Positions 3,588-43,676 of a stretch of DNA of 50,627 bases are shown one piece after another (the first letter of the stretch is position 1; each line of letters begins with the position of its first letter). Source of the DNA: a virus (lineage: Duplodnaviria > Caudoviricetes); the IMG/VR virus record IMGVR_UViG_3300003369_000002, positions 1-50,627 of that record. One strand, given 5' to 3'. The notes beneath the pieces are model-generated. The model worked only from the letters and a program-made list of their open reading frames with translations, did no database searches and was not told the DNA's origin. Position numbers and translations under genes: made by a program.

Positions 3588-3746
3588 ATGGCAAGTGATT
3601 ATGAAAAAGAGGTAAGAATGACATATGTAGAAGCCAAGGAATATTTAAAATCCGTAGGAGAATGGGAATATGCTAAAGATAAAGATGGATATTCAATTGT
3701 AAATTATGCCTTGGATTTAAAAGAACAAAGGAAGTCTCTCATATAA
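3588..3746 (+). CDS. Hypothetical protein
   Basis: RBS GAAAGGA favours ATG 3588 over 3552; stop TAA is part of the palindromic site at 3744. Confidence 0.6.
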   Translation: MASDYEKEVRMTYVEAKEYLKSVGEWEYAKDKDGYSIVNYALDLKEQRKSLI

Positions 3747-3781
3747 AAGAGAAATTTTAATAGAAGAAATGAGGTGAAAAC

Positions 3782-3949
3782 ATGGGTAAATATAATTTTG
3801 ATCCATTTTGTGAATTTATAAATAATTGGAGTAGCAAAGATTTTGTATTGGGGATCAGATTGAAAATTGAGAATAATAGTTGCTGCGGAACATATGCTAT
3901 AGTAATTAATATTGGATTCTGGGAAATAGATTTAGGTTTCTGTAAATAA
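3782..3949 (+). CDS. Small hypothetical protein (55 aa; not in ORF track)
   Basis: RBS GAGGTG, ATG 3782, MGKYNFDPFCEF...LGFCK*. Confidence 0.6.
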   Translation: MGKYNFDPFCEFINNWSSKDFVLGIRLKIENNSCCGTYAIVINIGFWEIDLGFCK

Positions 3950-3963
3950 ATTGTATTTAGCTA

Positions 3964-3992
3964 TTGCATAATAAATAGTATTGTAGTATAGT
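3964..3992 (+). promoter_or_regulatory. SigA-type promoter with the 13-mer in its spacer
   Basis: TTGCAT-17 bp-TATAGT; spacer AATAAATAGTATTGTAG. Confidence 0.7.
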
Positions 3993-4027
3993 ATAAATAT
4001 CGAAGGAAAACAGAAAGGAGTTAGTAA

Positions 4028-4195
4028 ATGAAAAGAAGCGAAGTGGTTAAAGAATTGTTCTCAGCTTATTGTCAGCGAGAAGGTAGGAGAGTCTTAACAG
4101 AAAAGACCGAAAGAGAAATATACCAAGAGACAAGAAAAATCATAAAGTTCTTTGAAGCAGAAGAAAGTAAAATCGAACAAGTTAATATTAAATAA
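4028..4195 (+). CDS. Small hypothetical protein (55 aa; not in ORF track)
   Basis: RBS GAAAGGAG, MKRSEVVKELF...VNIK*. Confidence 0.6.
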   Translation: MKRSEVVKELFSAYCQREGRRVLTEKTEREIYQETRKIIKFFEAEESKIEQVNIK

Positions 4196-4225
4196 TATTA
4201 TAATAAATTTGAAGGAGAGATAAAC

Positions 4226-6064
4226 ATGGAAGAAAAGGTAGAATTAAAAGTAAACATAATTAATCAATTAAGGTTATTAAGGCAATCAACTTTCAAGGAT
4301 GTCCTTTGCTTTTTAGATGAGGATATACAGAATGCACAAAGAGCTAAGGCAACAAACGTTTATATTACAGTAAATAGGAATAGCGTGACTATAGAAAATG
4401 ATGGAGCAATATTAGATAACCCACAAGCACTATTTTCTATAGCAGAAAGTGGATGGGATAATGAAACAAAAGAAACTGAAAATCCCTTTGGAATGGGTTT
4501 CTTCAGTAATATTACAATTAGTAGTTTAATTGAAGTCTTCAGTGGGAATAAACACTTAGTCTTTGATGTAGATAATATGATAGATACCAATAATACTGAA
4601 ATAAAAATTGAAGAGTTAGAAGAATCTTATCCAGGATTTAAACTAGTTTTGAATAAATTCAATTTTGATACAGCTTCTAGTTATGACATTGGAGAAAGGG
4701 TTGAACAATTAGGACGATACGTACAGGACTTAAATGTTTATTATAATGGCGCTTTACAAGAAAAGAAAGATTTAACTGAAGGAGACAATAGTTATTTCCA
4801 ATTAAAAATTGAAGAAGATGATATTCAAGGTTGGATAGCATTGGGAAGTAACTATTGGTATAGCGATAATTTAAACATATTTTATAAAGGTAGATTAGTT
4901 AAGAAATTAGAAAATAGTCCTTATCTTAAAGGAGATATACATGTTGGAGATAAGACATTATCCTTAACCTCACCAGACAGAAAAGATATTATCAAGGATG
5001 GTAAATATTCTAGCTTTTATAAGAAAATACAGAATTACGCTAAAAAATTATGTGAAGAGGCGTTGCTAGAAGGCGATGAACAGGAAGTAGAAGAGTTTGC
5101 TAATGCAGTAGGATATTACGTAGATAAACAGAACGTTAAAAACAAAATAAGATTTTTGACACTAAAAGGGCAAGATGAAAAAGATTTTAAATACTTTGAA
5201 AAAATTGCCTTAGCTAAAAGTAAAGATAAGAACATTAGTAACTATAAAGATTTCCGGTTATATTTAGAAAAAGAAAGTGAAGTTCAATCTGAAAGTCATT
5301 TTGAAGAAATTGAGATAAAAGAGGATGTTGTCACCACCTTCCCTGATGCAAAAGGAATTATTACTCATAGCGGATCTAGCTCATATTCTGAAGGATATAC
5401 CGAAAGACCTGAAATTAAAGAGAAGGAAACAGAGGAAAAAATAGGAGAGATAATTATAAATAACGAGGAACCTGTCTTCTGGATGTCTTTTGGAGAAATT
5501 GAAACATATGAATTTAAATTTAATATGCTGAAATATTACGGACTAAAATTAATAATATCAAGGAACAAGGTTGAAGATCAAATACTAAAGGCTATGAAAG
5601 AATCAGACAAGGTAATTCATATTTCTGAATTATTAGAGGATGTTGAGATCACTGGGTATTTAACTATGACGGAATTAAGTATAAAAGAGCAAAGAGCTTT
5701 GATGCTGCTAGAATTAATAAGTAGGATATTAGGATTTAATCATAACATATTTGCTATAGGTGATTTAATGGTTACAAAAACAGTAAAGATAGAATCCTTA
5801 AATGTATCCAATGAAATTATTGAAGAAAGTATAACTGTATTAAGAAATCTCGGAGATAAGAAGACTTATATCGACAGAAGTATCATTGACTTAACGGATA
5901 TAGAAGAAAGTCTTAATTCCGAAATTACTATTAAGGACTATAAATTTATTCTAACTAATTTAGATAATCTAGTAGAACAATCTTATCTGTTATGTGAGGG
6001 ACATAAAAATAAAGATAAAGTTATGCAGGATATTTTACTAGGATTAGGTCAAGGAGTCTTATAA
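4226..6064 (+). CDS. GHKL/HATPase_c (Hsp90-like) ATPase domain protein
   Basis: EDIQNAQRAKA (N-box), IENDGA (G1), FGMGFFS (G2); long acidic C-terminal region not recognised. Confidence 0.7.
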   Translation: MEEKVELKVNIINQLRLLRQSTFKDVLCFLDEDIQNAQRAKATNVYITVNRNSVTIENDGAILDNPQALFSIAESGWDNETKETENPFGMGFFSNITISSLIEVFSGNKHLVFDVDNMIDTNNTEIKIEELEESYPGFKLVLNKFNFDTASSYDIGERVEQLGRYVQDLNVYYNGALQEKKDLTEGDNSYFQLKIEEDDIQGWIALGSNYWYSDNLNIFYKGRLVKKLENSPYLKGDIHVGDKTLSLTSPDRKDIIKDGKYSSFYKKIQNYAKKLCEEALLEGDEQEVEEFANAVGYYVDKQNVKNKIRFLTLKGQDEKDFKYFEKIALAKSKDKNISNYKDFRLYLEKESEVQSESHFEEIEIKEDVVTTFPDAKGIITHSGSSSYSEGYTERPEIKEKETEEKIGEIIINNEEPVFWMSFGEIETYEFKFNMLKYYGLKLIISRNKVEDQILKAMKESDKVIHISELLEDVEITGYLTMTELSIKEQRALMLLELISRILGFNHNIFAIGDLMVTKTVKIESLNVSNEIIEESITVLRNLGDKKTYIDRSIIDLTDIEESLNSEITIKDYKFILTNLDNLVEQSYLLCEGHKNKDKVMQDILLGLGQGVL

Positions 6065-6114
6065 AACAAGGGTTTTAAAATGTAAATAATAAAAATAGAG
6101 GAGAGATTTATATT

Positions 6115-6624
6115 ATGAAAGGAAAATTAATCAGTTCAAACGGATATAGCTACGGAGATATAGGAATTAAAGCTTTTAGATATGAAGGAATGGATTACTT
6201 TGTAGGAGACGTAGTTAGGCCAATGCAGGAAAACGGAATACAAAAGGAAGACACTATAGTTATATTCCACGAATTTAAGTATTTTCCAATGTGGTATGCA
6301 AGCATGGAATATTTCGCAAAAGAAAGATATCACTTAACTAAAATTAGAAACTGGGATGATTTGAAAGATAAAGAAATATTCTGTCATAAATCAGTTTATG
6401 TTCAGCTAGAAAAGGAAATTGATAAAACAATTAAATTAAATTTATCTGAAGGTGAAGCAAATAATTTGTTAGATTCATTGGTTACAGTTTGTGCAGCAAT
6501 GCAAGTAAATGATCATTTGCAATTTGAGCTAGATACAATAAATATGAAGGTAAAGGCAAAAATTATTCAATTAGAACCCAAAGAATTTGTATTTGATTTT
6601 ATAAATAAAACCGATATTAAATAG
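6115..6624 (+). CDS. Hypothetical protein
   Basis: ORF with RBS GAGGAG; no recognised motif. Confidence 0.65.
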   Translation: MKGKLISSNGYSYGDIGIKAFRYEGMDYFVGDVVRPMQENGIQKEDTIVIFHEFKYFPMWYASMEYFAKERYHLTKIRNWDDLKDKEIFCHKSVYVQLEKEIDKTIKLNLSEGEANNLLDSLVTVCAAMQVNDHLQFELDTINMKVKAKIIQLEPKEFVFDFINKTDIK

Positions 6625-6647
6625 TATTATATAAGGAGGAAAAGTAA

Positions 6648-6959
6648 ATGAAAGTTAATGATAACGTAACAGTAAAAGGTACAAAGGGAATTGTAAAACA
6701 GATAGACAAGGATTCAGCATTAATTACTTTAAATATTATGAGTGATGGAGTTTCTAAAACTATAGATCAATGGTATGCAAATGAAATTGTTGAAGAGGTA
6801 GTTGATTTACATACTGAAGCTGAGGAAGTATTTAGGGAACTGGAAGCTAAAGGATTATCAGATAAAGAGATTTCTGATTTAGTTTCTCAGGGTGGAGATG
6901 TATTTAAGAAAAAGGTTTTAGAGTTTGGAATATTACCAGAGGAGGATTTAAATGTGTAA
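6648..6959 (+). CDS. Hypothetical protein (KOW/SH3-like N-terminus)
   Basis: RBS AAGGAGG; MKVNDNVTVKGTKGIVKQID. Confidence 0.65.
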   Translation: MKVNDNVTVKGTKGIVKQIDKDSALITLNIMSDGVSKTIDQWYANEIVEEVVDLHTEAEEVFRELEAKGLSDKEISDLVSQGGDVFKKKVLEFGILPEEDLNV

Positions 6960-7125
6960 GGAAGATGAACATAAACTAGTCTATATGGATGCAAAGAGAA
7001 ATGAAATATATAAAGGGTGTTGGACTCAATACACCAAAACCTATAGATTCTTTTGTGAGAAATGTGGTGAAGTTATTACCAAAACAAATGAGGACTATTG
7101 TAGAGAAACTCCTGATTGGTATTAA
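6952..7125 (+). CDS. Small hypothetical protein with CxxC (57 aa; not in ORF track)
   Basis: RBS GAGGAGG; MCKEDEHK...FFCEKCGE...PDWY*. Confidence 0.6.
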   Translation: MCKEDEHKLVYMDAKRNEIYKGCWTQYTKTYRFFCEKCGEVITKTNEDYCRETPDWY

Positions 7126-7161
7126 CTTAAAATTAGGATTTTATATGAGAGGAGAAAAGTA

Positions 7162-7659
7162 ATGTATCAAGATTTTGTAGACTCAATGATGTCAGCATTC
7201 AACAAAAGTATCTCAGATCATGTCTATAACCATTTCGTTAATGGTGGAAATGAGGCCATGCTAAATGAACAAGCCGATAAAGCTTTTAAATTAGCAACTG
7301 AAAAGATAGATGCCAGAATAAGGGATGAGTTAGAAACTGCATTATATGGTGGTAATCATAAAACATATACATCAGCTGTTTCGGTATTTACCATGAAAGA
7401 GTTTGAAAGGACTATGAAGATTCTAAATGATATGCCTCCAATAGCTATAAGAATGGAAGTATTTAAGGAAGGATTTATGGTTATGTCACAAACAATTATT
7501 AGAAGTAATGTAGATGACGGGATGGACATAAATCCTTTGAAGGGTATAAAAGTTATAGTTGTAGAGGATGATCCTGAACTAAGAGTCAATCAAGGTAGAA
7601 TTATTTATAACAATGGAACCAGTAAAATAATTGATATTTATACTATAGTCCATAGATAG
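7162..7659 (+). CDS. Hypothetical protein
   Basis: RBS GAGGAG; lies between palindromic sites 7128 and 7695. Confidence 0.65.
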   Translation: MYQDFVDSMMSAFNKSISDHVYNHFVNGGNEAMLNEQADKAFKLATEKIDARIRDELETALYGGNHKTYTSAVSVFTMKEFERTMKILNDMPPIAIRMEVFKEGFMVMSQTIIRSNVDDGMDINPLKGIKVIVVEDDPELRVNQGRIIYNNGTSKIIDIYTIVHR

Positions 7660-7728
7660 AAAGGAGTATTTAGATACTAAATAATATCGTATATTAAAAA
7701 AGATATTTTATATGAAAGGAGAAGAAAT

Positions 7729-7914
7729 ATGAAGGAGGAAGTTAAGCAAGAATTTATAAAAGCTTATGATGAATTAATAAAAGCATGGGATAAATTAAGC
7801 AATATTACGTGTGGCGATGGAGATTGTAAAGAATGTCCAATAGACAAAGAAAAAAATGTACCTTGTCAACTTGGATATAACTTTTTCAATAATGAATGGA
7901 GTAATAAAATATGA
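7729..7914 (+). CDS. Small Cys-containing hypothetical protein
   Basis: RBS GAAAGGAG; C.DGDCKECP...C. Confidence 0.6.
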   Translation: MKEEVKQEFIKAYDELIKAWDKLSNITCGDGDCKECPIDKEKNVPCQLGYNFFNNEWSNKI

Positions 7915-8117
7915 AAGTGAAGTATAAAGATTGTGATATTGAGGCAGTACGTGAAAAATCTATATCGGGTAATAAGTTAATTTTCTTCAGTATTTTTGAT
8001 AATGGATTTGAAATTAATTCTGGATTTAGTGAAGGAGAAGACACTTTAAAAGATTTTATATATGGTTTAGAAAATGAAGTTGATGATTATAGAAATTTAA
8101 AAGAAAGTGGGGATTAG
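7911..8117 (+). CDS. Hypothetical protein
   Basis: ATGA overlap with previous gene. Confidence 0.6.
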   Translation: MKVKYKDCDIEAVREKSISGNKLIFFSIFDNGFEINSGFSEGEDTLKDFIYGLENEVDDYRNLKESGD

Positions 8118-8120
8118 TTT

Positions 8121-8339
8121 ATGGATGCTAATAAAGTACAAAGATTAAAAAATGATATAGATGGATATATAGGAAATGTATTATATAAAGAAAATAAATT
8201 AAGCAAAGAAGAACTAAAAGATGAATTAAGGTGTGTCTGTGAGTATATGATGGCTTTATGTGATTTATTATGTGATAAAAAAATAGAGAGTAAATTTTTA
8301 GGGATAGCTCCTTATATTAACGAAAATAAATTAATTTAA
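8121..8339 (+). CDS. Hypothetical protein
   Basis: Tightly packed ORF; stop inside site 8337. Confidence 0.6.
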   Translation: MDANKVQRLKNDIDGYIGNVLYKENKLSKEELKDELRCVCEYMMALCDLLCDKKIESKFLGIAPYINENKLI

Positions 8340-8379
8340 AAAGATGAATTTATTAGAATTATGAAAGGAGAGGTTGTAA

Positions 8380-8685
8380 ATGTTTTTCAATAGATGTGAT
8401 AAATGCCCAACAGTTGAAATACAGAGAACAACAATTAAATCGTTAGAAGAAAAACTATCAAAAATGAAAGAGCATTATAGAGAAGACATAAAAGTTTTAA
8501 ATCGCCAAATATGTCTTGAAAGAGATGAATATGAAAAAAGTAATTTTACAATTAAGGATGTTGATAGTAGAAGGAATATGATTGATCCTTATGAATTTGA
8601 AACTTTTACAAGATATGAATGTCCAACCCAAAAAGAAAGAGTAAGCAGAAGACCTACTTTCTATCAGAATTATTTTAAGATTTAA
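8380..8685 (+). CDS. Hypothetical protein
   Basis: RBS GAAAGGAGAGG; bracketed by sites 8337 and 8683. Confidence 0.65.
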   Translation: MFFNRCDKCPTVEIQRTTIKSLEEKLSKMKEHYREDIKVLNRQICLERDEYEKSNFTIKDVDSRRNMIDPYEFETFTRYECPTQKERVSRRPTFYQNYFKI

Positions 8686-8719
8686 AACAGCTATTCTATT
8701 ACGAAGGGAGAGGGTAAAG

Positions 8720-8971
8720 ATGTTTGAATCATATCATAAAAGACAACAGATCCGTCAATGTGAAGATATTCTTGAAATACTTACACACGAACTAAAAGTA
8801 GCAAACGATCACATGGAAATATATAAAAAATGTAAAGACAATCTTTTAAAGAATGATACTTGTTTAGAAAATATGGAAGCTGTGTTTCTAAAAGAAGTTG
8901 ATAAATTACAGACGCAGTTTTACAAACAAAATGAATATCTCAAACGAGATAAAGGAAAGGAGAAATTATGA
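8720..8971 (+). CDS. Hypothetical coiled-coil protein
   Basis: RBS GAAGGGAG. Confidence 0.6.
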   Translation: MFESYHKRQQIRQCEDILEILTHELKVANDHMEIYKKCKDNLLKNDTCLENMEAVFLKEVDKLQTQFYKQNEYLKRDKGKEKL

Positions 8972-9171
8972 TATTAAAAGGCAAAGACACAATTAATGAC
9001 ACCGTTGATTTAGAAGTATTATTTACGGTTGGTAAGGAGTATTGCTTTAATCCTGTGGATAATAAATACACTAGATATAACGGATTTGTAGGATGGATAA
9101 TAGATGATGAAACTTTTAAAAGGTGGTTATCGAAGGAATTTAAAGAAAAATATTTCGAGGAGGTAGAGTAA
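8968..9171 (+). CDS. Hypothetical protein
   Basis: ATGA overlap; RBS AAGGAG. Confidence 0.6.
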   Translation: MILKGKDTINDTVDLEVLFTVGKEYCFNPVDNKYTRYNGFVGWIIDDETFKRWLSKEFKEKYFEEVE

Positions 9172-9351
9172 ATGGCAATTAATATGATGTGTACAAATAG
9201 CTCATGCGAAAATTATTGGGAAGATAATTGTACTAAAAATATTAATGAAGAAAGAATTGAAATTAACGCTAGTGGACAATGTGAGACTTTCAAGCAAGGC
9301 GTAAGTAAATGGTACGAAGAAGCTGAAAAAGTGAATGGAGAAATATTATGA
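9172..9351 (+). CDS. Small Cys-rich protein (59 aa; not in ORF track)
   Basis: RBS GGAGG; C....C.NY....C......I.I...GQCETF. Confidence 0.6.
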   Translation: MAINMMCTNSSCENYWEDNCTKNINEERIEINASGQCETFKQGVSKWYEEAEKVNGEIL

Positions 9352-9500
9352 CAAAATTAAGTAAAAAGAAATGTTCTATGTGTGGTAAGAAACTAAATCC
9401 TAATAATCAAGTCAGTAGTGGCGAGAACAATTTCTGTGATATCTTCTGCCTAGATTGGTTTAAATCAACTTATGAAAATAAAAAGGAAGAGAGGGAATAG
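9348..9500 (+). CDS. Small zinc-finger-like protein (50 aa; not in ORF track)
   Basis: ATGA overlap; CSMCGKKL...FCDIFC. Confidence 0.55.
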   Translation: MTKLSKKKCSMCGKKLNPNNQVSSGENNFCDIFCLDWFKSTYENKKEERE

Positions 9501-9503
9501 ATA

Positions 9504-10250
9504 ATGGGTAAATTTATAGACTTAACTGGGAAAAGATTTGGGAAATTAGTTGTAATAGGTAGAGCAGAAAACTATGTTGCCCCACTTGGACATATAACTC
9601 CTCAATGGTATTGCAATTGTGATTGTGGGACGAAGAATATTATAATCATAAGGAATAGCTTAAAATCAGGTAATACAACAAGTTGTGGATGTGCCAGAAG
9701 AGAAATATGTTCAGCTATAGGTAAAATGTCATCTAAACAAAATAAATATGATTTAGATGGAACCTATGGAATTGGATATACTCTCAAGAATCAACCTTTT
9801 TATTTTGATTTGGAGGATTATGATAAAATAAAAGGTTATTGTTGGGGCTATGATAAAAATATGTATGTAAAGGCTAGGAATGGCAATAAGACAATAAAGA
9901 TGCACAGATTAGTAATGAATGCAAAACAAGAATGTGATGTAGACCATATATATCATATTACTTACGATAATAGAAAAGATAAACTTAGAATTGTAACAGA
10001 TAGTCAAAACGAAATGAACTCAATAACTCCTAAAAATAATTCAAGTGGAACAAAAGGAGTTAGTTGGGATAAGAAAAGTCAAGAGTGGCATTCTAGTATA
10101 ATGACAAGAGGGGACAGGCTACATAAATTCTTTAAAAATAAAGAAGATGCAATTGAATGGAGAAAAAAGAAGGAAATCGAATTACATGGAGATTATGCCA
10201 TTAAAGATATACCTATATTAAATAATATCATAAAGATGGTGAACATATGA
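9504..10250 (+). CDS. Free-standing HNH homing endonuclease with AP2-like C-terminus
   Basis: DLTGKRFGKLVV, W.C.CDCG, TTSCGC, MHRLVM, VDHI....DNRK..LR, N.SG.KGV.W. Confidence 0.85.
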   Translation: MGKFIDLTGKRFGKLVVIGRAENYVAPLGHITPQWYCNCDCGTKNIIIIRNSLKSGNTTSCGCARREICSAIGKMSSKQNKYDLDGTYGIGYTLKNQPFYFDLEDYDKIKGYCWGYDKNMYVKARNGNKTIKMHRLVMNAKQECDVDHIYHITYDNRKDKLRIVTDSQNEMNSITPKNNSSGTKGVSWDKKSQEWHSSIMTRGDRLHKFFKNKEDAIEWRKKKEIELHGDYAIKDIPILNNIIKMVNI

Positions 10251-11878
10251 AAAAGGATTGGCAGATAATAAATCCTAGTCCGAAGGGAAATCTTATTCAA
10301 CTACTTTTAGAGGGAAGGAACATAAAAGATCCAGTCCATTTCCTTCAACCTTTAGAATCTGATATGTTACCCTATGAGGATTTGTCTGATATTAAAGAAG
10401 CTGCTGACTTAGTTCTCAAGGCAATCGAAGAGGGATGGTATATTCATATTCTTGCAGATGTAGATTTAGACGGTGTAGCTTCAAACAGTATGCTTTATAG
10501 ATACCTAACTGGTTTTACCAATAGAGTTACATGGTCAATTAACGTAGGTAAAAAACATGGATTAAATATGAAAGACTTACCTTCTTATATTGGAAAATAC
10601 CAATTAGTAATTGCTGTAGATTCATCTAGTGATAGTTGTGCTGAACAGAAATACTTAATTGACAATGGTATTCAAGTTATAGTATTAGATCATCATCCTA
10701 TAAAAAAGAAAGGAACTGCAATAATTGTAAACTCACAGTTAAACGGATATAAAAATCCTGCACTTGCTGGTTCCGGTGTAACCTTTAAATTTATTAAGTA
10801 TTTAGATTTCTTACAAGGTACTACGGGAGCTGAAGAGTTTTATGACTTAGCTGCATCAGGAATTATAGGAGATATGCAAGATGTATCAGAAGACAGTCCA
10901 GAAAACAGATATATTTGTTCAATGGGATTTAGTCATCTAATTAATCCAGGACTTAAAGAGCTGGTAGGTAAATACACATTCAATGGGACTTGTATTTCAT
11001 TTTCTATAGCACCAATGATTAATGCCGGTGTCCGTACTAAACATGGAGAATTATCAGCACAGTTGTTATTAGAGGATGATAAGAAAAAAGTAAAAAAAAT
11101 AATAGTAGAACTTACAGAATTGAAAGAAATTCAAAATATCCAAAAGGAAAGATTAGTAGAGGAATTAGAAATCGAAATTAAAGAAAAAAATATGATAAAT
11201 GATAAAGTTATGGGATTTTTAATATCTAATAGAGATGGTGCAATGGAAGCAGATATTACAGGCCTTGTAGGAAATGTTTTATCAGCAAAGTATGATTGCT
11301 TGGTTATAATAGTTCATCCTACTGAGAAGGAAGGAGTCCTCAAAGGAAGTATTCGTGGAAATGGAATTCCTGACTTTAAAGAGTTTGTATCTGATACTAA
11401 ACTTGTTATTTTCTGTGAAGGCCATCCTGGAGCAGCAGGTATATCGCTATATGAATCTAAATGGAGTGAATTAATAACTACTTTAAATAAACAACTAGAG
11501 GGTACAGAGCTGACAATAACAAGTAATGCTGATATGATCTTAAAACCAAAAGAGCTAACAATGCCATTGATTAAAAAGATTGAGTTCATAAATATGATCT
11601 CAGGCAAAGGCTTTTCACCAATAAATATTGTAATAGAAGGATTAGAAGCTACCGGAATTACCACAATGAAAAAAGTACATTCAAAATTCGTAGCAGATTC
11701 GATTGAGTTTATCCAATGGAACAGTGATCTCAGTGAGAGATTGAAGTGTGGTACTGGAATTTACAAAACTATTAATGTAGTAGGTACTCCAGGAATATCT
11801 AACTTTATGGGAAAGACAGCAAGACAAATTATTATTAAGGATACTATTATAGAAAATCATTTAGAGTTCTTTCGTTAA
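10247..11878 (+). CDS. recJ: RecJ-like ssDNA exonuclease (DHH family)
   Basis: DVDLDG, AVD, LDHH, LAGSGV, IIGD, PMINA..R, KGSIR, GHPGAAG. Confidence 0.9.
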   Translation: MKKDWQIINPSPKGNLIQLLLEGRNIKDPVHFLQPLESDMLPYEDLSDIKEAADLVLKAIEEGWYIHILADVDLDGVASNSMLYRYLTGFTNRVTWSINVGKKHGLNMKDLPSYIGKYQLVIAVDSSSDSCAEQKYLIDNGIQVIVLDHHPIKKKGTAIIVNSQLNGYKNPALAGSGVTFKFIKYLDFLQGTTGAEEFYDLAASGIIGDMQDVSEDSPENRYICSMGFSHLINPGLKELVGKYTFNGTCISFSIAPMINAGVRTKHGELSAQLLLEDDKKKVKKIIVELTELKEIQNIQKERLVEELEIEIKEKNMINDKVMGFLISNRDGAMEADITGLVGNVLSAKYDCLVIIVHPTEKEGVLKGSIRGNGIPDFKEFVSDTKLVIFCEGHPGAAGISLYESKWSELITTLNKQLEGTELTITSNADMILKPKELTMPLIKKIEFINMISGKGFSPINIVIEGLEATGITTMKKVHSKFVADSIEFIQWNSDLSERLKCGTGIYKTINVVGTPGISNFMGKTARQIIIKDTIIENHLEFFR

Positions 11879-11904
11879 ATTAAATAATATTATAGGAGGT
11901 TAAT

Positions 11905-12123: not shown

Positions 12124-12158
12124 TCAAAAGTATCTTTTATACGAAAGGACTGGTCGTT

Positions 12159-35560: not shown

Positions 35561-35707
35561 AATAATCGTCTCCTCTGCAAGTTATTATTTGACTTTATTA
35601 AATTTATAAAGTATTCTTTACTTGTGAAGTCCTAACACTTCACAGACCAGTATTGTATTTATACGGAGTGAATCATTTTTTGTTTTTCATTTCGTATAAA
35701 TACAGTT

Positions 35708-35854
35708 TTATAAAAATGTATAGCTAAATTTCTTTCCTGTGATTTGAAAAAATTCCTCAGATGTAATCCAGGATTTTAATACACATCTACAAACAAAGTT
35801 AAAGTCTACTGCTTTATATTTGTGATTATACATATATTTCAAATCTTCAAACAT
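35708..35854 (-). CDS. XkdX-like small phage protein (48 aa; not in ORF track)
   Basis: RBS GGGAGG; V.KSWITSEEFFQITGK; follows tail fibre gene; stop inside site 35695. Confidence 0.65.
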   Translation of the reverse strand: MFEDLKYMYNHKYKAVDFNFVCRCVLKSWITSEEFFQITGKKFSYTFL

Positions 35855-35878
35855 TTCCTTCCTCCCTTTTAATTTTTA

Positions 35879-35908
35879 CATAATAAAAGACACCCTTTCA
35901 GGTGCCTT
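35879..35908 (-). terminator. Terminator with TTTTATTATG tail
   Basis: Plus-strand arms AAGACACC / GGTGCCTT; - strand tail TTTTATTATG. Confidence 0.6.
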
Positions 35909-35964
35909 CATCTTTTATATTCTGTTTTTATGATAGAGTTACATTATAATTTCACATTGTTTAA

Positions 35965-38907
35965 CTACTTTAATTTAATGTAATTAGTTAATGTAACAAT
36001 TCCAATATAATCTCCTGTAGTTACTTTTACTAAAACTCCATTGACAATTCCTATTTTATTTCCTAAAACTAGACCTGTTAAATTGGTATCGGCTGTTCTT
36101 AAATAACCACCAGTCCTTATCATTCCACTTCCACCAATTGCAATATTTTCAATGGCTATACCAAAATAAAATATGAGATCAGTACCCGTAGAAAATGCAC
36201 CAATAGCTGAACCCTCTGATAAAAACTGTACTGGGGTACCTTTTGTAATAATAGTTGAATCACCATTATACATTTTCTTGGTTTCTCCAGCAAAATCATA
36301 AGCATATTGTTTTCCATCCGTAGTAATAATTTCTACTGGTACAACATCATTCCCATAGCCACTTAATGTAAAGTCACATCCTGCGCCACTTCCTGCAACC
36401 TCTTCGAACATTTTAATTTGCCCTTTTAGTCTACAACCAATCATAGATATTGTGTCTTTATTACCACTTCCCATAGAACCAAATCTAATAGCTGTTAAAC
36501 CATTTATGTTTTCATATCTACAATTTATAAATTTATGTTTAGAAGCTCTTGCTAATGCTGGTTTATTGTGAAAACTATATGGCATATCGTTAAATTCTGT
36601 AAAGAAATAGCTATCTTCAAAAGTATGGTCTGTTCCGCTTACATTACCTTCTCCCCAAGCTTGAGCGTATCCACTACCAAGATATTTAATAAAGTTGCAA
36701 TTCTTAACTTTTCGTACTAAATCAGAATTTAAATAATCGTCATGGACTGCATAACGCGTATTTTTACCAGTTACTATTAAATTTTCTAAGTTTCCGTTAT
36801 TAGTAAGGTTTAAAGTTGAAACTCTATACTTCGTATCAGTTGAAAATGAATCTGCTAATTCTCCCTTTAATATTAGTTTATTCTTATCCCCGATTCCTTT
36901 TAAATGCACCCAATCAGGAACCTTTAAACCAACAAAATTAACATCATTTATCTCTGTTGTTGTGTAATAAGCTAGGATGTCATAGGTACCTTCACTTATT
37001 TGTACTTCATACGATTTATTTACTGTTGAATCTAAAATTGATTCTAATGCACTTCTAAGGCTTGTAAAGTCTCCTGTGCCATTTAGTTTAACCGTCTTTA
37101 TAATATTTGTTAATCCAATATTGTTTCTTATATAATTCATATTACTTTGAGACAAAATAGAATTAACTACTTTATATCCAAAACTTTCATAGTATGTTGC
37201 GATACTATTTTGCTCTAGTTGTGCAGTTGCAAGCTCTGCGTTTTTAACCGAAAGTCTTATATAATAAGCACCAACCGGTGAGGTAAATACTGCATTATTA
37301 CTAGTAGCTAATCCGCTCGCATAAACTTTGCTACTATTATAAAATGCAAATTGTTCCGTTGTTCCGGTTAAAATATATTGTGTACTCGGTAAAATAGGGA
37401 TAAAGTCACTTGCGTTATAATTAGCCAAAGTAGTCAAATTTCCATTTGTGAAAGTTATATATTTGCCACTTGTTATCGTAGCTAAATTAAATAAGTTTTT
37501 AGATGGTGTACCTCTTAAAAGCAAAGGATCTAACTTTAAATAACTTATAAAATATTTTATTATACTTTCATCAAACTTAGGATAAAAACTTTCATAAAGC
37601 TGAGAGATAGTATTTTTTTCTAATTGAACTGTGGGTATCTCTGTAATTTTCATGCTCAGCCTTACAAATGTAGCTGTACTTGGAGTTGTGAAAGTTGTAA
37701 AATTAGGGGTTGCAATACCACTTGCAAATACTTTGCCACTATTGTAAAAAGCCAGTTGCTCTCCTGTCCCTTGAAGTATATAAGCTGTACTAGGCAGAAC
37801 TGGAATATAGTCAGAATAGGCATAAGTAGGAGCTGAGCCAGATATTACTCCAGTGCTTGCAAGAACGAAAAACCCATTTATTGCTGTATCTTTATTGAAA
37901 AGATTAATACTAGCATTGCCTGCTAAAACTGGGAATCCCATGTTTTTTAGAGTGAGACCATAGTCTGGTATTCCAGTACTTTGGTATGTCCCTCCCGCTA
38001 TCCACCCTGCATTATAGTAATACCATTTACCATCTGCTACAACTAAGTAAATTCCTGTAGCTCCTGTTGGATATGCGGACTGTAAAGTAGCTAATGTTGC
38101 AAATGCGTCTTTAGGACTACCACTTACAGCACTTGCATTTAACGTATCAACATATGTTTTATCTGATTTTAAAGCTATTGCCGCACTATTATTTGCTATA
38201 GCTATAGCATTATTTATTATGTTAGTATTAGAAATATTTAATTCAGATTGTGGCGCCTTAGCTGCCAATTGTGCACGATCATTTTTTACCGCCAGTGCTA
38301 AACTAGCCTCTGTTATTCCGTTGTCAGTTAAAATTCCGATTTTATTAGAGAGTAAGATGTCTTGTGAATCGACATAAGTTTTGTCCGCTTTTAATGCTGT
38401 TAAAGTATCCATTTTCCCGATTTTAGTTCCTAATGTCGTCTCACCTTTTCTGCTCTCTATCATTTCTAATGTAGCATTGGCTGCACTCAAAGCAACAGCA
38501 TTACCGTAATTGGTTGCTTCTTGATGCACTATAGATATTGCTTGATCTAAAGTTTCTACAATAGTTGAACCATCATTCTCAGTTACAATTCTGGACTTAT
38601 CTATATAAATTTGACCTCTTCCAAAATAATTTGTAACTGTGATGTTTTTACTTTCTTCTGTAGAATAAAAATTTACATTTCCTGTGACATAATTCACACT
38701 GAATTGATTTGCAGACGTAATAGTCTGAGTTTTTGATATTTCAAAATAATTATCTATGATTACATGATTAAATTCATTGGGAATCTGTGATAATAATATC
38801 GTACCATTTACCACTTGATGCTGTTCATTTGTAATTTGAATATTAATTTTATTACCATTAGAGTCCTGATTCCATTGAGTATATAAAAGATTTGAAACGT
38901 CATCCAT
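35965..38907 (-). CDS. Tail spike/fibre with tandem carbohydrate-binding-like repeats and a pectin-lyase-like beta-helix
   Basis: KADKTYVD, GSPK.AFATL..LQSAYPTG; two about 110-aa repeats (NLFN...SD.IP.LPST.Y...QLE.N); VK..GTGDFTSL..AL, ISEGTY. Confidence 0.7.
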   Translation of the reverse strand: MDDVSNLLYTQWNQDSNGNKINIQITNEQHQVVNGTILLSQIPNEFNHVIIDNYFEISKTQTITSANQFSVNYVTGNVNFYSTEESKNITVTNYFGRGQIYIDKSRIVTENDGSTIVETLDQAISIVHQEATNYGNAVALSAANATLEMIESRKGETTLGTKIGKMDTLTALKADKTYVDSQDILLSNKIGILTDNGITEASLALAVKNDRAQLAAKAPQSELNISNTNIINNAIAIANNSAAIALKSDKTYVDTLNASAVSGSPKDAFATLATLQSAYPTGATGIYLVVADGKWYYYNAGWIAGGTYQSTGIPDYGLTLKNMGFPVLAGNASINLFNKDTAINGFFVLASTGVISGSAPTYAYSDYIPVLPSTAYILQGTGEQLAFYNSGKVFASGIATPNFTTFTTPSTATFVRLSMKITEIPTVQLEKNTISQLYESFYPKFDESIIKYFISYLKLDPLLLRGTPSKNLFNLATITSGKYITFTNGNLTTLANYNASDFIPILPSTQYILTGTTEQFAFYNSSKVYASGLATSNNAVFTSPVGAYYIRLSVKNAELATAQLEQNSIATYYESFGYKVVNSILSQSNMNYIRNNIGLTNIIKTVKLNGTGDFTSLRSALESILDSTVNKSYEVQISEGTYDILAYYTTTEINDVNFVGLKVPDWVHLKGIGDKNKLILKGELADSFSTDTKYRVSTLNLTNNGNLENLIVTGKNTRYAVHDDYLNSDLVRKVKNCNFIKYLGSGYAQAWGEGNVSGTDHTFEDSYFFTEFNDMPYSFHNKPALARASKHKFINCRYENINGLTAIRFGSMGSGNKDTISMIGCRLKGQIKMFEEVAGSGAGCDFTLSGYGNDVVPVEIITTDGKQYAYDFAGETKKMYNGDSTIITKGTPVQFLSEGSAIGAFSTGTDLIFYFGIAIENIAIGGSGMIRTGGYLRTADTNLTGLVLGNKIGIVNGVLVKVTTGDYIGIVTLTNYIKLK

Positions 38908-38966
38908 ATTTATTGCCTCGCTTTCTATTTTTTGATTTTGATTTTCGTCATTTGTTTAATTTTGGG

Positions 38967-39001
38967 CATAATAAAAAGCCATAGAAATTAATCTTATGGC
39001 T
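38967..39001 (-). terminator. Terminator with TTTTTATTATG tail
   Basis: AGCCATA / TATGGCT stem. Confidence 0.65.
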
Positions 39002-39029
39002 AATCAAATGGTTATTTTATATTGATTTA

Positions 39030-39512
39030 TTATAAAACGGATTTGTATTTATTGAGTAAAAATTCTATTCTTGTTTTCATATCTGGTGTTTCCTCAGCAT
39101 TTAATTTATCTGGAATCCACTTAAGATAATTACATATAGTAACATTAAGCTCTGTAACATCCGTATATACTTGTTGTTCATAGTCACTTAAGTTTAACAA
39201 CTTACTATATTTTTTAGAAAACGCAATATAATCACCTTTTGTATAACTGACTGTATATACTTTATTCTCCCATCCTTTAGAGCATTGAGAATAAATATTT
39301 GAAACATCTTTTTTAAAAGTTTCATTGGTAAATTTATTTATATTGACGTCCTTAACCGCCGTTTTAGTTTCAGACTCTTTGATGGTATTAGTAATTTTAC
39401 TAGCGGAAGGGCTATTTTTAACAATGTCTTTCGTATTAGAGCATCCACTTAAAAGTAATATAAATAATAATATAAATAAAATAAATATGTTGTTTCTTTT
39501 ATTTAATTTCAT
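39030..39512 (-). CDS. Lipoprotein (moron-like)
   Basis: RBS AAGGAG, MKLNKRNNIFILFILLFILLLSG-C lipobox. Confidence 0.75.
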   Translation of the reverse strand: MKLNKRNNIFILFILLFILLLSGCSNTKDIVKNSPSASKITNTIKESETKTAVKDVNINKFTNETFKKDVSNIYSQCSKGWENKVYTVSYTKGDYIAFSKKYSKLLNLSDYEQQVYTDVTELNVTICNYLKWIPDKLNAEETPDMKTRIEFLLNKYKSVL

Positions 39513-39548
39513 AATAAAGCTCCTTTTAATTTTGTATATTTTATTTCT

Positions 39549-39577
39549 ATTATATTCCAAATAATAAAAGAATTCAA
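39549..39577 (-). promoter_or_regulatory. SigA promoter of the lipoprotein gene
   Basis: TTGAAT-17 bp-TATAAT on the - strand. Confidence 0.7.
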
Positions 39578-39593
39578 CATATTTTACTTATTT

Positions 39594-39896
39594 TTAATCA
39601 ATAAATTCAGCCTTCTCAAACTCTTCACAGTTATTTTTGATAAACTCATATATACTTTTATCTTCGTTCATACCCTCTTTGTTGATTTTCTCTAATCCAA
39701 ATACCTCATCAAAATCTTTAGGATATATATTAATAAATCTAGGTTCGAGATTGGCGTAATCTTTTGTTTCTTTCGATTCATATCCATTAAGAACTATATA
39801 TGCATTTTTACTAATTTTAGATTTCTCTACTTTAGCTATTTTCCAGTAGTTCGCTGTAATTCCAAATTGAGTTTTTATACCTATTCCGAATGCCAT
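39594..39896 (-). CDS. Hypothetical tail-associated protein
   Basis: RBS AAGGAGG; TQFGITANYWKI; position after tail spike gene. Confidence 0.6.
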   Translation of the reverse strand: MAFGIGIKTQFGITANYWKIAKVEKSKISKNAYIVLNGYESKETKDYANLEPRFINIYPKDFDEVFGLEKINKEGMNEDKSIYEFIKNNCEEFEKAEFID

Positions 39897-39920
39897 ATTG
39901 TACCTCCTTAATCTTTTATA

Positions 39921-42767
39921 TTATGCACCTATATAAGTTTTAATAGATAGGGAACAAGAAAATCTATTTAAATTAGGACTAGTAATAGAGATCGTATGCC
40001 ACCCCTTTACATCAACCCATTGTTGCAAACTCATGATGGATTGTATGTTTATACAGTCCATAGCCCAAACTCCATCTACATATATTTTCATAATACCCAA
40101 TGTTAAGGGAGTCGTGAAGATTCCATAAATCAAGCTATGGGTATGTCCAAGTATTTCTATTGAGTGAGTGTGCACGTTTTGATGAGTATGTGCATTTTGA
40201 TGAGTATGTGCATTTTGATGAGTATGTGCATTTTGATGAGTATGTGCAATATTATGAGTATGATCCGCTAAGGTGATACCAAATAAATGATAATGAGATA
40301 ATCCACTTTTGAGAACGGTGTGCCCATGTGTCTTACCATCTGAACCAAAATCTGCTGGATAAGCTGTGCTAGTATTTGTTACTCCTCCCTCCCAAACAGG
40401 TTCAACCGTATTATTAGTCAAAGCACTTCCATCTTGATATCCGCCACCTCCTGTAACTTCTGAAGAACTAGATCCGCTAGTTGAATTGCTACTGGCTCCT
40501 GATGTTGAATTAGAGCTTGCCCCACTAGTCTCATTGCTACTTGCTCCACTAGTTTCATTACTGCTCGCACCTGAAGTAGCAGATGTTGCACTGACTGTAC
40601 TAGCTCCTTTTTCATATGCTCTATAATCTTCTACGCTTAATTTTAATAATACTTCACTTATTACATTTACGTTATCATCAATATAAAAACTTATATTCAT
40701 TGGATGAGAATCATCTACATTATCAACGAAACCAAAGTTATCTCTATTTACAACACCTTTAGCTGATAGAACTACAGTATTATTTTCATCCTTGATAGTA
40801 ATAGAAGTTCCATTAATTACTACAGAACCATTTTCATTTGTAATTACAAGTTTATCTCCTGCTAATAATTTACCAATAATCAGATTGGCAGTTATACCAT
40901 CGCTATTTATTGCTGTATCAACAGTCAAAAATCCCGTATGAGTTATGTACAAACTACCAGCTAATATCGCGATTCCATTATCCTCATTGCCCTTCTCAAC
41001 GATGAAAATTCCGTTTTCTGTAATAGTTATTTTATTTCTTCCAGCTAGAGCTACAATATCTTGTGCAGAGCAATTTAAAGCGTTTGAAAGATATGTGTCC
41101 ACTGCATTTTTAGTACCTTCAATATTATCCCAAGATAATCTCTTAGTGTTTAAATATTTAGCTGAGTTCAAAGCTTTTGTAATACTTGTACCTATGGACT
41201 TAGCATTATCTAATTTCTTATCTTTATTACTAAAAACAATTGTCAAAGCATTAGTATCGATATTATAACTATAACTTACAATTCTCACATCAACATTAAT
41301 TTTCAGTTTCTCAGAATACGATCTAACAAAATCTCCTAATTTTATTTTGCCCCAGTAATTTTGAGCATTTTTATCAGCAAAGAAATCAATTAGTCCCATA
41401 CTTTGTTGAACCACAGGCTGATTATATATAGCTAATACTTTCTCTGCAGCAACTTTTAATAATTCTGGTGTTACATAAACATCACTTGACCAGGGTTGTA
41501 CGATAGTCCAAGAATCTAATTCCTGAAGTAAATCAGCATTAAATATTAATGTACTTGTACCGATAATCTTCGCAGTAGGTTTAAATATATCTGTTCCTAT
41601 TTGAGATATTGGTATATTAATTGCAACTACTTGAGCATTTAACGAAGCAATTTCTGCATTCTTAGCTGTAGTAGCCACTCGATTAGCATTGCAAAGAGGT
41701 GTTTGAATTGTTAGATTTACATTATCTGGTGGAGTAGTTGACATATAACTAGCCTGTATTCCATCTAAACTCTTCTGCAACGCTGTGAGAGCATCTAATT
41801 CGGAACTTTTAATAACAAGACTAGCATTTATAGCGTCTAATTGAGTTTTCAATATATTAAATTCAGTATTTTTAACAGCCAGTAAGGCATTATAATTTGT
41901 TAAAGCTGATACTAATTCAGGGCTTAACTGACCACTTGCAATATAATAATCATAATTTGTTATACGATTAGTACCATCTAATGTCAAGGTGGCAATTTGC
42001 ATCTGATCTTTTCCACTGACTTCTAAACAAGTACAAACAGCAATGCCCTCTGTAGTCTTAGTTAAATCTTTTACATAATTTTCTTCAGTTAAAATTATCC
42101 CAGTGTGAGTACCATAATTATCCAAATCATAAACGTTTATCAATTTATTAAACGTATCATAAAGTATTATAATATTATAAGCTGGACAAATATCATCATG
42201 AAGGAATTTAAGTATAGATTTAGAGAGGGCGTCTATCCAACGAACTCGGGGTGCTGTACCTCCATTTATTATATCAATTAAACAAGCAGGATCTACATAT
42301 CCAATTTTCCAAGAAGTTTGAGCTTCTACAAGGTTAAGTATTCCATTATTATCTATATTATTAACTAGCTCTCTTTCAATTCCATCAATAGTAATAATAC
42401 TTCCATCCAAATTTGACTCTAAACTTTTACAATCAACTGTCATTTTTAACCCATCACTACTTTCACTAAGGGTTTTAATGACATAATATTCTTGGAATAC
42501 AGGATTCATAGGATCTCCGGCTTTTAATAAAACTAGATTTTCCGTTTGAATGGATTGATATTGTGGATTCTGTATTTTTATATGAGTGATAGAGTCTTCT
42601 ATATAAAAGGGTAAAGTAAATTTAAGAGAGTGTACTGTGTCAATATTTGGATCAATAGTTCTATCAAATGCTGTACTTAGTATATTTATTGGGGATCTGC
42701 TTTTATATGTTTGTACCAATGTAAAATCATATTTCTCATTTAAAATATTATCAAATAATGTGCTCAT
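39921..42767 (-). CDS. Tail central spike / baseplate hub (Tal-like) protein
   Basis: Follows Dit; coiled coil, IKLGD.V, TAI..DGI.A..I.G.L; C-terminal HxH repeats. Confidence 0.7.
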   Translation of the reverse strand: MSTLFDNILNEKYDFTLVQTYKSRSPINILSTAFDRTIDPNIDTVHSLKFTLPFYIEDSITHIKIQNPQYQSIQTENLVLLKAGDPMNPVFQEYYVIKTLSESSDGLKMTVDCKSLESNLDGSIITIDGIERELVNNIDNNGILNLVEAQTSWKIGYVDPACLIDIINGGTAPRVRWIDALSKSILKFLHDDICPAYNIIILYDTFNKLINVYDLDNYGTHTGIILTEENYVKDLTKTTEGIAVCTCLEVSGKDQMQIATLTLDGTNRITNYDYYIASGQLSPELVSALTNYNALLAVKNTEFNILKTQLDAINASLVIKSSELDALTALQKSLDGIQASYMSTTPPDNVNLTIQTPLCNANRVATTAKNAEIASLNAQVVAINIPISQIGTDIFKPTAKIIGTSTLIFNADLLQELDSWTIVQPWSSDVYVTPELLKVAAEKVLAIYNQPVVQQSMGLIDFFADKNAQNYWGKIKLGDFVRSYSEKLKINVDVRIVSYSYNIDTNALTIVFSNKDKKLDNAKSIGTSITKALNSAKYLNTKRLSWDNIEGTKNAVDTYLSNALNCSAQDIVALAGRNKITITENGIFIVEKGNEDNGIAILAGSLYITHTGFLTVDTAINSDGITANLIIGKLLAGDKLVITNENGSVVINGTSITIKDENNTVVLSAKGVVNRDNFGFVDNVDDSHPMNISFYIDDNVNVISEVLLKLSVEDYRAYEKGASTVSATSATSGASSNETSGASSNETSGASSNSTSGASSNSTSGSSSSEVTGGGGYQDGSALTNNTVEPVWEGGVTNTSTAYPADFGSDGKTHGHTVLKSGLSHYHLFGITLADHTHNIAHTHQNAHTHQNAHTHQNAHTHQNVHTHSIEILGHTHSLIYGIFTTPLTLGIMKIYVDGVWAMDCINIQSIMSLQQWVDVKGWHTISITSPNLNRFSCSLSIKTYIGA
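40177..40248. repeat. Four exact 18-bp tandem repeats encoding AHTHQN
   Basis: TTTTGATGAGTATGTGCA x4. Confidence 0.95.
40458..40577. repeat. Five degenerate 24-bp repeats encoding TSGASSN(E/S)
   Basis: Protein repeats TSGASSNE, TSGASSNE, TSGASSNS, TSGASSNS, TSGSSSSE. Confidence 0.85.
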
Positions 42768-42783
42768 ACCTTACTTCCTTTCA

Positions 42784-43572
42784 TTATATTTGTATTGGGT
42801 ATTGTAATTGGAATTGAATTATACAAGCTCCTGTGATTTCTAATCTGTTAAGACCATATGCCATACTTAAAGCACTGTATCCAAAGTTAAATTTAGATAT
42901 AGCTTCTATACCACTTTCTGTAACAATTTCCTGTCTACTATTTATAGCTACAGTCTCAAGTAAAGGTAAATTATTAAAACTCAGAGTATTTCCTGAATTG
43001 GTCAAATTCTTTATTGAAATTCCTGTGGCATTTCCGACTAAGGTAAACTGAAAAACATTAGGAGTAAAGTATGAATCAGTATTACAATTATTTGGCAACT
43101 CTATAATAGTTGTCCCAGTATTATCTGATAAATCATATTCTATGGTCTCTAACTGAGAGAACGGAAAACTATGGTTACTTTCAGCCTCCAGCTCATAGTA
43201 GCCTTGTCCAGTTGGGTTTGTAACAAACTGGATTTTTGTGAACTGGATAATAAATTCTAAACCCGGAAAATCCTCCTCGACTGTAAATATATGAAACTCA
43301 TTATCAGGTGCTATAAGACGAAGTAACTCCATTCTATCTTCTGGGGTAAATGGTTCTTCCTCATCTATTTTCATAATTTTCATTGATAAAGTATAAAAAC
43401 TAGTATCGGCTCCTTGGTAAAAATTACCTTTAAATTTCACATGGTCCCGAGATAAAACTTTAGCTGAGGAGAGCGACTGAGTAGTGGTATCTTCACCGAC
43501 ACGAATAAGATGTACTCCCATTTCTTCTGAACTTGTATTATTAAATGTAAAGTCCGTAGACAAAAAGCTCAA
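42784..43572 (-). CDS. Distal tail protein (Dit)
   Basis: Directly after tape measure; FTFNN.SSEEMGV, SNHSFPFS, YGLNRL.I.G; TTG start with RBS AAGGAGG. Confidence 0.75.
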   Translation of the reverse strand: MSFLSTDFTFNNTSSEEMGVHLIRVGEDTTTQSLSSAKVLSRDHVKFKGNFYQGADTSFYTLSMKIMKIDEEEPFTPEDRMELLRLIAPDNEFHIFTVEEDFPGLEFIIQFTKIQFVTNPTGQGYYELEAESNHSFPFSQLETIEYDLSDNTGTTIIELPNNCNTDSYFTPNVFQFTLVGNATGISIKNLTNSGNTLSFNNLPLLETVAINSRQEIVTESGIEAISKFNFGYSALSMAYGLNRLEITGACIIQFQLQYPIQI

Positions 43573-43623
43573 TATAACTACCTCCTTAAATTTTGATATC
43601 TATATGAATTTCTTAATTATTTC

Positions 43624-43658
43624 CATAATAAAAAGAGGAGGGTGTTTATTCCTCCTCT
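43624..43658 (-). terminator. Terminator with TTTTTATTATG tail after tape measure gene
   Basis: AGAGGAGG / CCTCCTCT stem. Confidence 0.7.
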
Positions 43659-43676
43659 TAAAAGACGTGTTTTATA

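What the first reader, a model, noticed from the sequence alone, without database searches (positions are those of the whole stretch)
3744..43674. Array of about 24 palindromic TARAA-N6-TTYTA sites punctuating gene boundaries: candidate phage gene-cassette (integron/pdif-like) system
Seen: 15 exact TAAAA-N6-TTTTA (3744, 6062, 7128, 7695, 13244, 14334, 14735, 15174, 18474, 20570, 23485, 26200, 26711, 32082, 43659) and 9 one-mismatch copies (8337, 8683, 12124, 21956, 23817, 26475, 30716, 35695, 39004). Five of the nine carry the same symmetric change (TAGAA or TTCTA). The spacer is always 6 bp and all 24 cores differ. Symmetry often extends outward to TC-NNN-TAAAA-N6-TTTTA-NNN-GA (complete at 3739-3764 and, with one arm mismatch, 12119-12144). 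In 10 cases the arm itself supplies the upstream gene's stop codon, and the site is usually followed within about 10-30 nt by RBS and start. Orientation relative to genes holds on both strands. A rough base-composition estimate gives about 2 exact matches by chance per 50 kb, with no boundary bias; I did not scan coding regions exhaustively. Established: inverted arms around a 6-8 bp core are the architecture of tyrosine-recombinase sites (dif/pdif, loxP); Tn916 Int and integron IntI recombine with little or no core homology. Inference: these are sites through which small promoterless genes are gained, lost and shuffled. Alternative: a dimeric regulator or nucleoid-protein site.
Basis: partly seen in the sequence, partly recalled or inferred. 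Interest (0 to 1): 0.88.

Follow-up and report, generated by a model that had tools for sequence, protein, structure and literature searches.

The report
Barcoded gene-swap joints in SPβ-like phages
A 16-base palindrome sits between many genes of this large SPβ-like phage and of the model phage SPβ; related Bacillus phages keep each copy's six-base centre in the same order while the DNA beside it switches to unrelated genes, so the copies likely act as matched crossover points where a phage recombinase would swap genes between relatives.

Summary
The motif is real: 17 exact TAAAA-N6-TTTTA sites against about 1 by chance, 15 of them between genes. The window is part of a 122-kb SPβ-like phage with 34 sites; SPβ also has 34.

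No close relative of this phage was found, so I tested mechanism in 15 Bacillus SPβ-like genomes. One flank switches to unrelated DNA in 47% of matched site pairs, against 3% at the known repressor operator. Both partners usually keep the same 6-bp core. Cores almost never repeat within a genome and keep a fixed order. Unrelated left and right flanks re-assort at 13 of 47 cores.

This fits spacer-matched, dif/lox-like module replacement between related phages, not integron shuffling. The tail-module recombinase (34505-35560) has all six catalytic residues and is the best candidate, but nothing ties it to the sites. SPβ's copy has a catalytic R→K change, phage SEP9 has the gene without site enrichment, and lab hybrids crossed over in long homology.

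The scan noted this motif before on other genomes (8 notes). My paper searches found no description.

The parts
3744..26726 (.). Early/replication arm with 13 exact intergenic TAAAA-N6-TTTTA sites (3744, 6062, 7128, 7695, 13244, 14334, 14735, 15174, 18474, 20570, 23485, 26200, 26711) and 6 intergenic one-mismatch sites (8337, 8683, 12124, 21956, 23817, 26475), mostly between a stop codon and a ribosome-binding site
2150..2165 (.). Additional intergenic one-mismatch site; its arm supplies the stop codon of a minus-strand gene (uncertain member)
30006..30021 (.).
30716..43674 (.). Late-arm intergenic sites: exact 32082 and 43659; one-mismatch 30716, 35695, 39004
38329..38344 (.).
   Evidence: PHROG hits of unknown function
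34505..35560 (-). Tail-module tyrosine recombinase of the YomM clade (351 aa from an ATA codon, 327 aa from ATG 35488) with R172-K205-H280-R283-W306-Y315; candidate enzyme
28173..29693 (+). Large serine integrase (prophage integration); in 9 Bacillus relatives the equivalent gene fills one site-bounded slot
1512..26753 (+). A separate, asymmetric intergenic repeat TAAATARTATTRT (13 exact copies, all on +); likely the operator of the phage's MrpR-like repressor, not part of the palindrome system

Best explanation
The TAAAA-N6-TTTTA copies mark points where related SPβ-like phages switch to unrelated genes while keeping the same six-base core, and they are likely tyrosine-recombinase crossover sites (about 11-6-11 bp) at which two co-resident phage genomes would exchange the modules between matching cores. 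A recombinase, most plausibly the tail-module YomM-type enzyme, would join two genomes at one matching core and resolve them at another, replacing everything in between. This is like dif-module replacement through a cointegrate, or cassette exchange with heterospecific lox sites. Because cores almost never repeat within a genome, a genome would be protected from deleting or inverting itself, and the cores act as a fixed address map. Rare crossovers between unlike neighbouring cores would add or remove modules. Shown: the motif, its position, the breakpoints, core sharing, order and uniqueness (breakpoints in Bacillus relatives only). Inferred: catalysis, the identity of the enzyme, and that this window's phage behaves like its Bacillus relatives.
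For: (1) Alignment ends pile up at exact sites: 99 of 905 right ends and 116 of 826 left ends, against 0.6% of random positions. (2) 41 of 104 ends of 100%-identical tracts of 500 bp or more that switch to unrelated DNA lie at a site. (3) The core is identical in 279 of 306 left-shared and 235 of 284 right-shared pairs, and identity drops right after TTTTA or right before TAAAA. (4) All four combinations of unrelated left and right flanks occur at 13 of 47 cores. (5) Control: one-side switching in 780 of 1,645 pairs at sites, 12 of 396 at a 13-bp SPBRE pattern, 22 of 192 at a 20-bp version, 11-14% at ribosome-binding sites; breakpoints per site 0.42 against 0.048 for SPBRE. (6) No core repeats in either orientation within six lineages, 4.0 expected, P about 0.02. 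(7) Three clean filled/empty pairs keep one whole core. (8) P0001's six catalytic residues are invariant in 120-121 of 121 aligned sequences, and its clade is the only recombinase clade shared by this phage and SPβ. (9) Acinetobacter pdif sites recombine through identical or near-identical 6-bp spacers (PMC13141974, passages).
Against: No close relative of this phage was found, so breakpoints were not tested in its own lineage. The 15 Bacillus genomes are related, so pairs are not independent. About 87% of alignment ends lie away from exact sites. In four laboratory SPβ×phi3T hybrids the block crossovers fall in identical tracts of 1.4-18 kb and none is pinned to a site; the short switches seen lie at no site. 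The source preprint places 15 of 16 junctions in homologous regions. SPβ YomM and its eight closest relatives carry HxxK where the second catalytic Arg is expected. SEP9 has a YomM-clade gene but no site enrichment (10 against control 9). YomM is a core gene, so co-occurrence is confounded by ancestry. Among pairs sharing both flanks the core (0.965) is no more conserved than the right flank (0.964).
Confidence: 0.6

Rival explanations
1. The palindrome is a binding site for a dimeric regulator or DNA-organising protein. Gene swaps concentrate there only because the 16-26 shared bases give microhomology to the phage's Sak4-like annealing protein, and joins at gene boundaries survive selection.
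For: A Sak4-like AAA_24 protein is encoded by the full genome and by SPβ (yorG). SPβ-family phages have turned recombinase folds into repressors (PMC10516654, passages). Identical cores on both partners are also expected from microhomology.
Against: The proven operator SPBRE offers similar repeated homology yet is rarely a breakpoint (3-11% against 47%). This phage has a separate candidate operator repeat. A regulator does not explain why cores avoid repeating.
Confidence: 0.22
2. A phage nuclease recognises the split palindrome and cuts in the six free bases, leaving locus-specific sticky ends that the phage ligase rejoins with matching ends from another genome.
For: It predicts the same core matching and uniqueness. 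The full genome encodes an ATP-dependent ligase and a 767-aa protein with no Pfam family.
Against: No candidate nuclease was identified. Cutting a genome at 34 places would be costly (inference). The 11-6-11 geometry with a lineage-variable outer element is typical of tyrosine recombinases (own knowledge).
Confidence: 0.08
3. A host XerC/D-type or XerS-type recombinase, rather than a phage enzyme, acts on the sites.
For: pdif modules use host XerCD. The same arms occur in phages of different hosts.
Against: The arms are symmetric rather than C/D-type. The outer arm bases differ between phage lineages. One of two host MAGs shows no excess (112 against control 120); in the other the listed excess sits on two contigs, one carrying the recombinase homolog.
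Confidence: 0.06
4. An integron-like array in which promoterless cassettes are excised and re-ordered with little core homology.
For: Small genes with their own ribosome-binding site follow the sites. Three filled/empty pairs between unlike cores exist.
Against: Cores match in about 87% of switched pairs. Order is fixed and modules keep their place; one long-distance case among 2,083 homologous module pairs.
Confidence: 0.04

Closest known systems
dif modules flanked by pdif (XerC/XerD) sites on Acinetobacter plasmids (PMC13141974, passages read)
   Same: Modules between sites with a 6-bp spacer; exchange needs identical or near-identical spacers; single modules are replaced through a cointegrate.
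   Different: Here the arms are symmetric, the element is a phage genome, cores almost never repeat so order stays fixed, and no enzyme is shown. pdif sites use host XerCD and allow inversions and deletions.
Cre/lox and Flp/FRT cassette exchange with heterospecific sites (recalled, no call)
   Same: Symmetric arms, with the core as compatibility code; double crossover replaces the intervening DNA.
   Different: That is an engineered use of one site; here 24-60 natural cores per genome, and the arms have only 5 invariant bases.
PeSL cassettes of T4-type phages (PMC2839356, abstract read)
   Same: Intergenic repeats at which related phages have shuffled non-essential genes.
   Different: PeSLs are promoter-terminator cassettes that recombine with each other and make mini-circles; these sites are 16-28 bp with a locus-specific core.
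SPBRE/MrpR (SroF) operator of SPβ (PMC10516654; 10.1101/2025.11.27.690993; passages read)
   Same: Repeated intergenic element of the same phage family, read by a recombinase-fold protein.
   Different: Different, asymmetric sequence, and rarely a breakpoint.
Integrons (IntI/attC) and Tn916 Int (recalled, no call)
   Same: Gene-sized modules beside recombinase-like sites.
   Different: Those tolerate unlike cores and re-order or relocate DNA; here cores match and order is fixed.
Tyrovirus gp50 putative attP, 11-6-11 inverted repeat (PMC9703825, passages read)
   Same: Same tail-module recombinase clade and same geometry; function stated as unknown.
   Different: A single site next to the gene; in Tsamsa the repeats found there have different arms.

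Membership tests
Tyrosine-recombinase simple core site (dif/lox type) | Inverted arms around a fixed 6-8 bp spacer | tested here: met
   Strict N6; weaker symmetry out to about 11 bp
Tyrosine-recombinase simple core site (dif/lox type) | Crossover between sites with matching spacers | tested here: met
   Comparative only, in Bacillus relatives: 279 of 306 and 235 of 284
Tyrosine-recombinase simple core site (dif/lox type) | A cognate recombinase binds and cleaves the site | not testable with these tools
   Candidate P0001 has six intact catalytic residues; binding untested
pdif/dif modules | Asymmetric XerC and XerD arms in alternating orientation | tested here: not met
   Both arms share one consensus
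pdif/dif modules | Module replacement between elements at matched spacers | tested here: met
   (Bacillus relatives)
Integron | Cassettes re-ordered or relocated within the array | tested here: not met
   21 order violations in 35,839, all one core; modules stay in place
Integron | IntI-family integrase beside attI; folded attC sites | tested here: inconclusive
   Only Phage_integrase found; flanking pairing near background; no IntI profile was run
Tn916-type homology-independent recombination | Product core comes from either parent regardless of match | tested here: not met
   Cores identical in about 87% of switched pairs; about 50% expected
SPBRE/MrpR operator | Matches the MrpR-bound motif | tested here: not met
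   Motif re-derived from the named ChAP-seq promoters differs
SPβ-like phage | Large serine integrase, YomG-like tail, PolIII/RecJ, MrpR-like and YomM-like genes, about 120-135 kb | tested here: met
   a distant relative, not shown to be genus Spbetavirus

The most novel reading that the evidence does not exclude
A large family of Firmicutes phages, including SPβ, carries a dedicated gene-exchange system: a conserved tail-module tyrosine recombinase acts on 30-60 barcoded sites that divide the genome into fixed slots, so co-resident relatives swap anti-defence, methylase and integration modules with only 16 shared bases. Phage mosaicism here would be programmed rather than accidental.
Probability: 0.4. 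Interest if true: 0.93.

Novelty: new variant of a known kind. Interest (0 to 1): 0.77.

Why it matters
Why phage mosaic joints fall at gene boundaries is an old question, usually answered by random joins plus selection. Here a specific site marks the joints in a model phage with ready genetics, so the question becomes directly testable with SPβ and phi3T. The slots hold genes that matter. A 279-aa ORF matching the length of the anti-defence protein Nip is the main gene of the GATAGT-TATTTA slot of phi3T, where SPβ has 359 bp. Integrases only 25% identical occupy one shared slot. If an enzyme is confirmed, it would also be a natural multi-address cassette-exchange tool.

Tried and rejected
Close relatives of this phage: only its own complete copy G001 and the distant G002 were found; G001 and G002 share just 2 cores.

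Reads: no RNA holder listed. Contigs of three runs laid on 3400-23300 showed no site-to-site joint; contigs drop rare forms, so this is no evidence either way.

Laboratory hybrids were uninformative. The one 'nonhomologous' junction after yosA in the preprint may be the TATTCC site, which lies 90 bp past the yosA stop and has unrelated flanks in SPβ and phi3T. I could not see the supplement that gives the junction, so this is only a lead.

The promoter scan was at background (109 against 112). An RNA hairpin was rejected: variants give both G·U and A·C pairs, and flanking pairing is mostly at background. No PDB sequence relative of P0001.

The recombinase tree is the quick tree; the careful search did not finish, and about eight listed recombinases were not fetched. 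The N5 control overlaps true sites and was ignored. Two of five filled/empty hits were dropped as a tandem repeat and a repeated flank. The 32 viral records were chosen by a motif-plus-RBS scan and are biased.

Paper searches found no description of the motif. The library lacks most subscription papers, including the 1999 SPβ genome paper (not seen).
Full report
Observation. The window has 17 exact TAAAA-N6-TTTTA sites against a shuffle mean of 1.02, and 0-3 at every other spacer from 0 to 12. Fifteen of 17 exact cores are intergenic in a window that is 93% coding, and intergenic-only shuffles give a mean of 0.17. One-mismatch copies are mostly background (14 of 24 in coding DNA).

What the window is. 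Pfam and PHROG scans show a large serine integrase, ParM, PolIII, RecJ, NrdDG, a YomG-like tail protein and a tyrosine recombinase in the late operon. The whole window aligns at 99.997-100% to a complete 121,966-bp record, G001, which has 34 sites. G001 also encodes an MrpR-like protein, two further tyrosine recombinases, a Sak4-like ATPase and a ligase. This is SPβ-like architecture.

Distribution. SPβ has 34 exact sites, with 0-3 at other spacers. All 15 Bacillus SPβ-like records examined have 29-44, control 0-3. Tsamsa has 23 (control 3), FADO 33 (1), E3 30 (7), Perkons 17 (2). A staphylococcal SPβ-like phage is doubtful (17 against 8) and SEP9 is negative (10 against 9). The inner five bases are constant; the outer arm is T-T-C/A-NNN in this phage and T-C/T-T-NNN in SPβ, giving roughly 11-6-11 bp.

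Breakpoints. No close relative of this phage was found, so I compared the 15 Bacillus genomes. Of de-duplicated alignment ends, 99 of 905 right ends and 116 of 826 left ends lie at an exact site, against 0.6% of random positions; the other 87% lie elsewhere. Of 104 ends of fully identical tracts of 500 bp or more that switch to unrelated DNA, 41 are at a site. Where two sites share only the left flank, the core is identical in 279 of 306 pairs; where they share only the right flank, in 235 of 284. At 13 of 47 cores all four combinations of unrelated left and right flanks occur, which most simply needs crossover within the site. These pairs are not independent, because the genomes are related.

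Control. I re-derived the MrpR operator SPBRE from the promoters named in PMC10516654 (passages). It shows one-side switching in 12 of 396 pairs (22 of 192 for a longer pattern), ribosome-binding sites in 11-14%, and the palindrome in 780 of 1,645. A conserved intergenic repeat is therefore not enough to make a breakpoint.

Address map. The 15 genomes use 75 cores. Within a genome the only repeat is a 15-bp tandem duplication in two phages. Core order is violated in 21 of 35,839 comparisons, all by one core. Homologous modules lie in overlapping slots in 2,039 of 2,083 pairs; the listed exceptions are neighbours or core variants except one. Across six lineages, including this phage, no core repeats in either orientation, 4.0 expected, P about 0.02. 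Three clean filled/empty pairs join the left flank of one site to the right flank of a later one and keep one whole core. Slots hold a 279-aa ORF matching Nip in length (identification by length only) and either of two integrase types 25% identical (9 genomes). At the Nip slot, homology resumes exactly at the right site but extends about 28 bp past the left one.

Enzyme. P0001 keeps R-K-H-R-W-Y in 120-121 of 121 aligned sequences and is 80% identical to its G002 counterpart while most shared proteins are 25-60%. In a quick tree of 62 recombinases its clade includes SPβ YomM and is the only clade shared by this phage and SPβ; the YopP clade is absent from G001 and G002. Against this: the YomM subclade has HxxK, SEP9 has the gene without enrichment, and any core gene would co-occur. 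The Tyrovirus paper leaves this gene's role open (PMC9703825, passages; supplement header only).

Results against. Four laboratory hybrids have block crossovers in identical tracts of 1.4-18 kb, none pinned to a site. The preprint 10.1101/2020.05.06.055103 (passages and section 15; supplement not seen) puts 15 of 16 junctions in homology. Ordinary homologous recombination clearly operates. The core is not more conserved than nearby flank among pairs sharing both flanks.

Mechanism. The best reading (0.6) is spacer-matched site-specific exchange between co-resident relatives, as described for pdif modules through cointegrates (PMC13141974, passages). The main rival (0.22) is a protein-binding site used as microhomology. 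It works like pdif modules or heterospecific lox sites but is not a member of the pdif family (symmetric arms) or of integrons (fixed order, matched cores).

Novelty. Nine paper searches and passages of PMC8270828, 10.1101/2021.11.22.469490, 10.1101/2025.11.27.690993, 10.1101/2023.05.01.538930 and PMC11984713 (also section 37 and the supplement list) gave no description of the motif; PMC2839356 was read as abstract only. The library is incomplete, and supplements I could not see may bear on the hybrid junctions. The scan's own notes report the same motif and a similar reading on other genomes; I reached mine first and do not count them as support. They led me to the PeSL paper, and one named stoperators as closest, the regulatory reading that the operator control addresses.

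Noticed in passing
window 1512-26753, + strand: Second repeat TAAATARTATTRT, 13 exact copies, all on +; some sit between -35 and -10-like hexamers (3965, 12898, 22579), others just before ribosome-binding sites. Likely operator of the MrpR-like protein of G001.
   Followed up: partly
window 38329-38344: A full site inside the 980-aa putative tail-associated gene near codon 190, between regions shared with the G002 homolog; a possible in-frame swap point. No relative found to test.
   Followed up: partly
window 29803-30123: Remnant of a second serine integrase (zinc-ribbon part) just after the intact one, containing a full site at 30006.
   Followed up: no
window 18-1514 and L073:11147-14494: G001 encodes a 1115-aa PolIII alpha followed by a second reading frame with similar finger and HhH domains; a LAGLIDADG gene lies just upstream.
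   Followed up: no
window 43677-50595: Tape-measure-like sequence is split into ORFs of 603 and 1562 aa with a 418-bp gap, where G002 has one long ORF.
   Followed up: no
SPβ NC_001884 116415 and phi3T 107932: The TATTCC site has unrelated flanks in the two phages and lies 90 bp past the yosA stop; it may be the single 'nonhomologous' junction of the evolution experiment.
   Followed up: partly
SPβ 82017, 103854, 111029, 69795: Sites inside yopR, yorI, yorM and yopA reading frames; the first three are kept in relatives.
   Followed up: no
G038:C89 3520-11138: At least 12 exact sites within 8 kb of a contig in a Clostridia MAG, some 200 bp apart: a very dense array.
   Followed up: no
L075:1907-2494: MazF-like gene next to the MrpR-like and XerC-like genes in G001's lysogeny module.
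   Followed up: no
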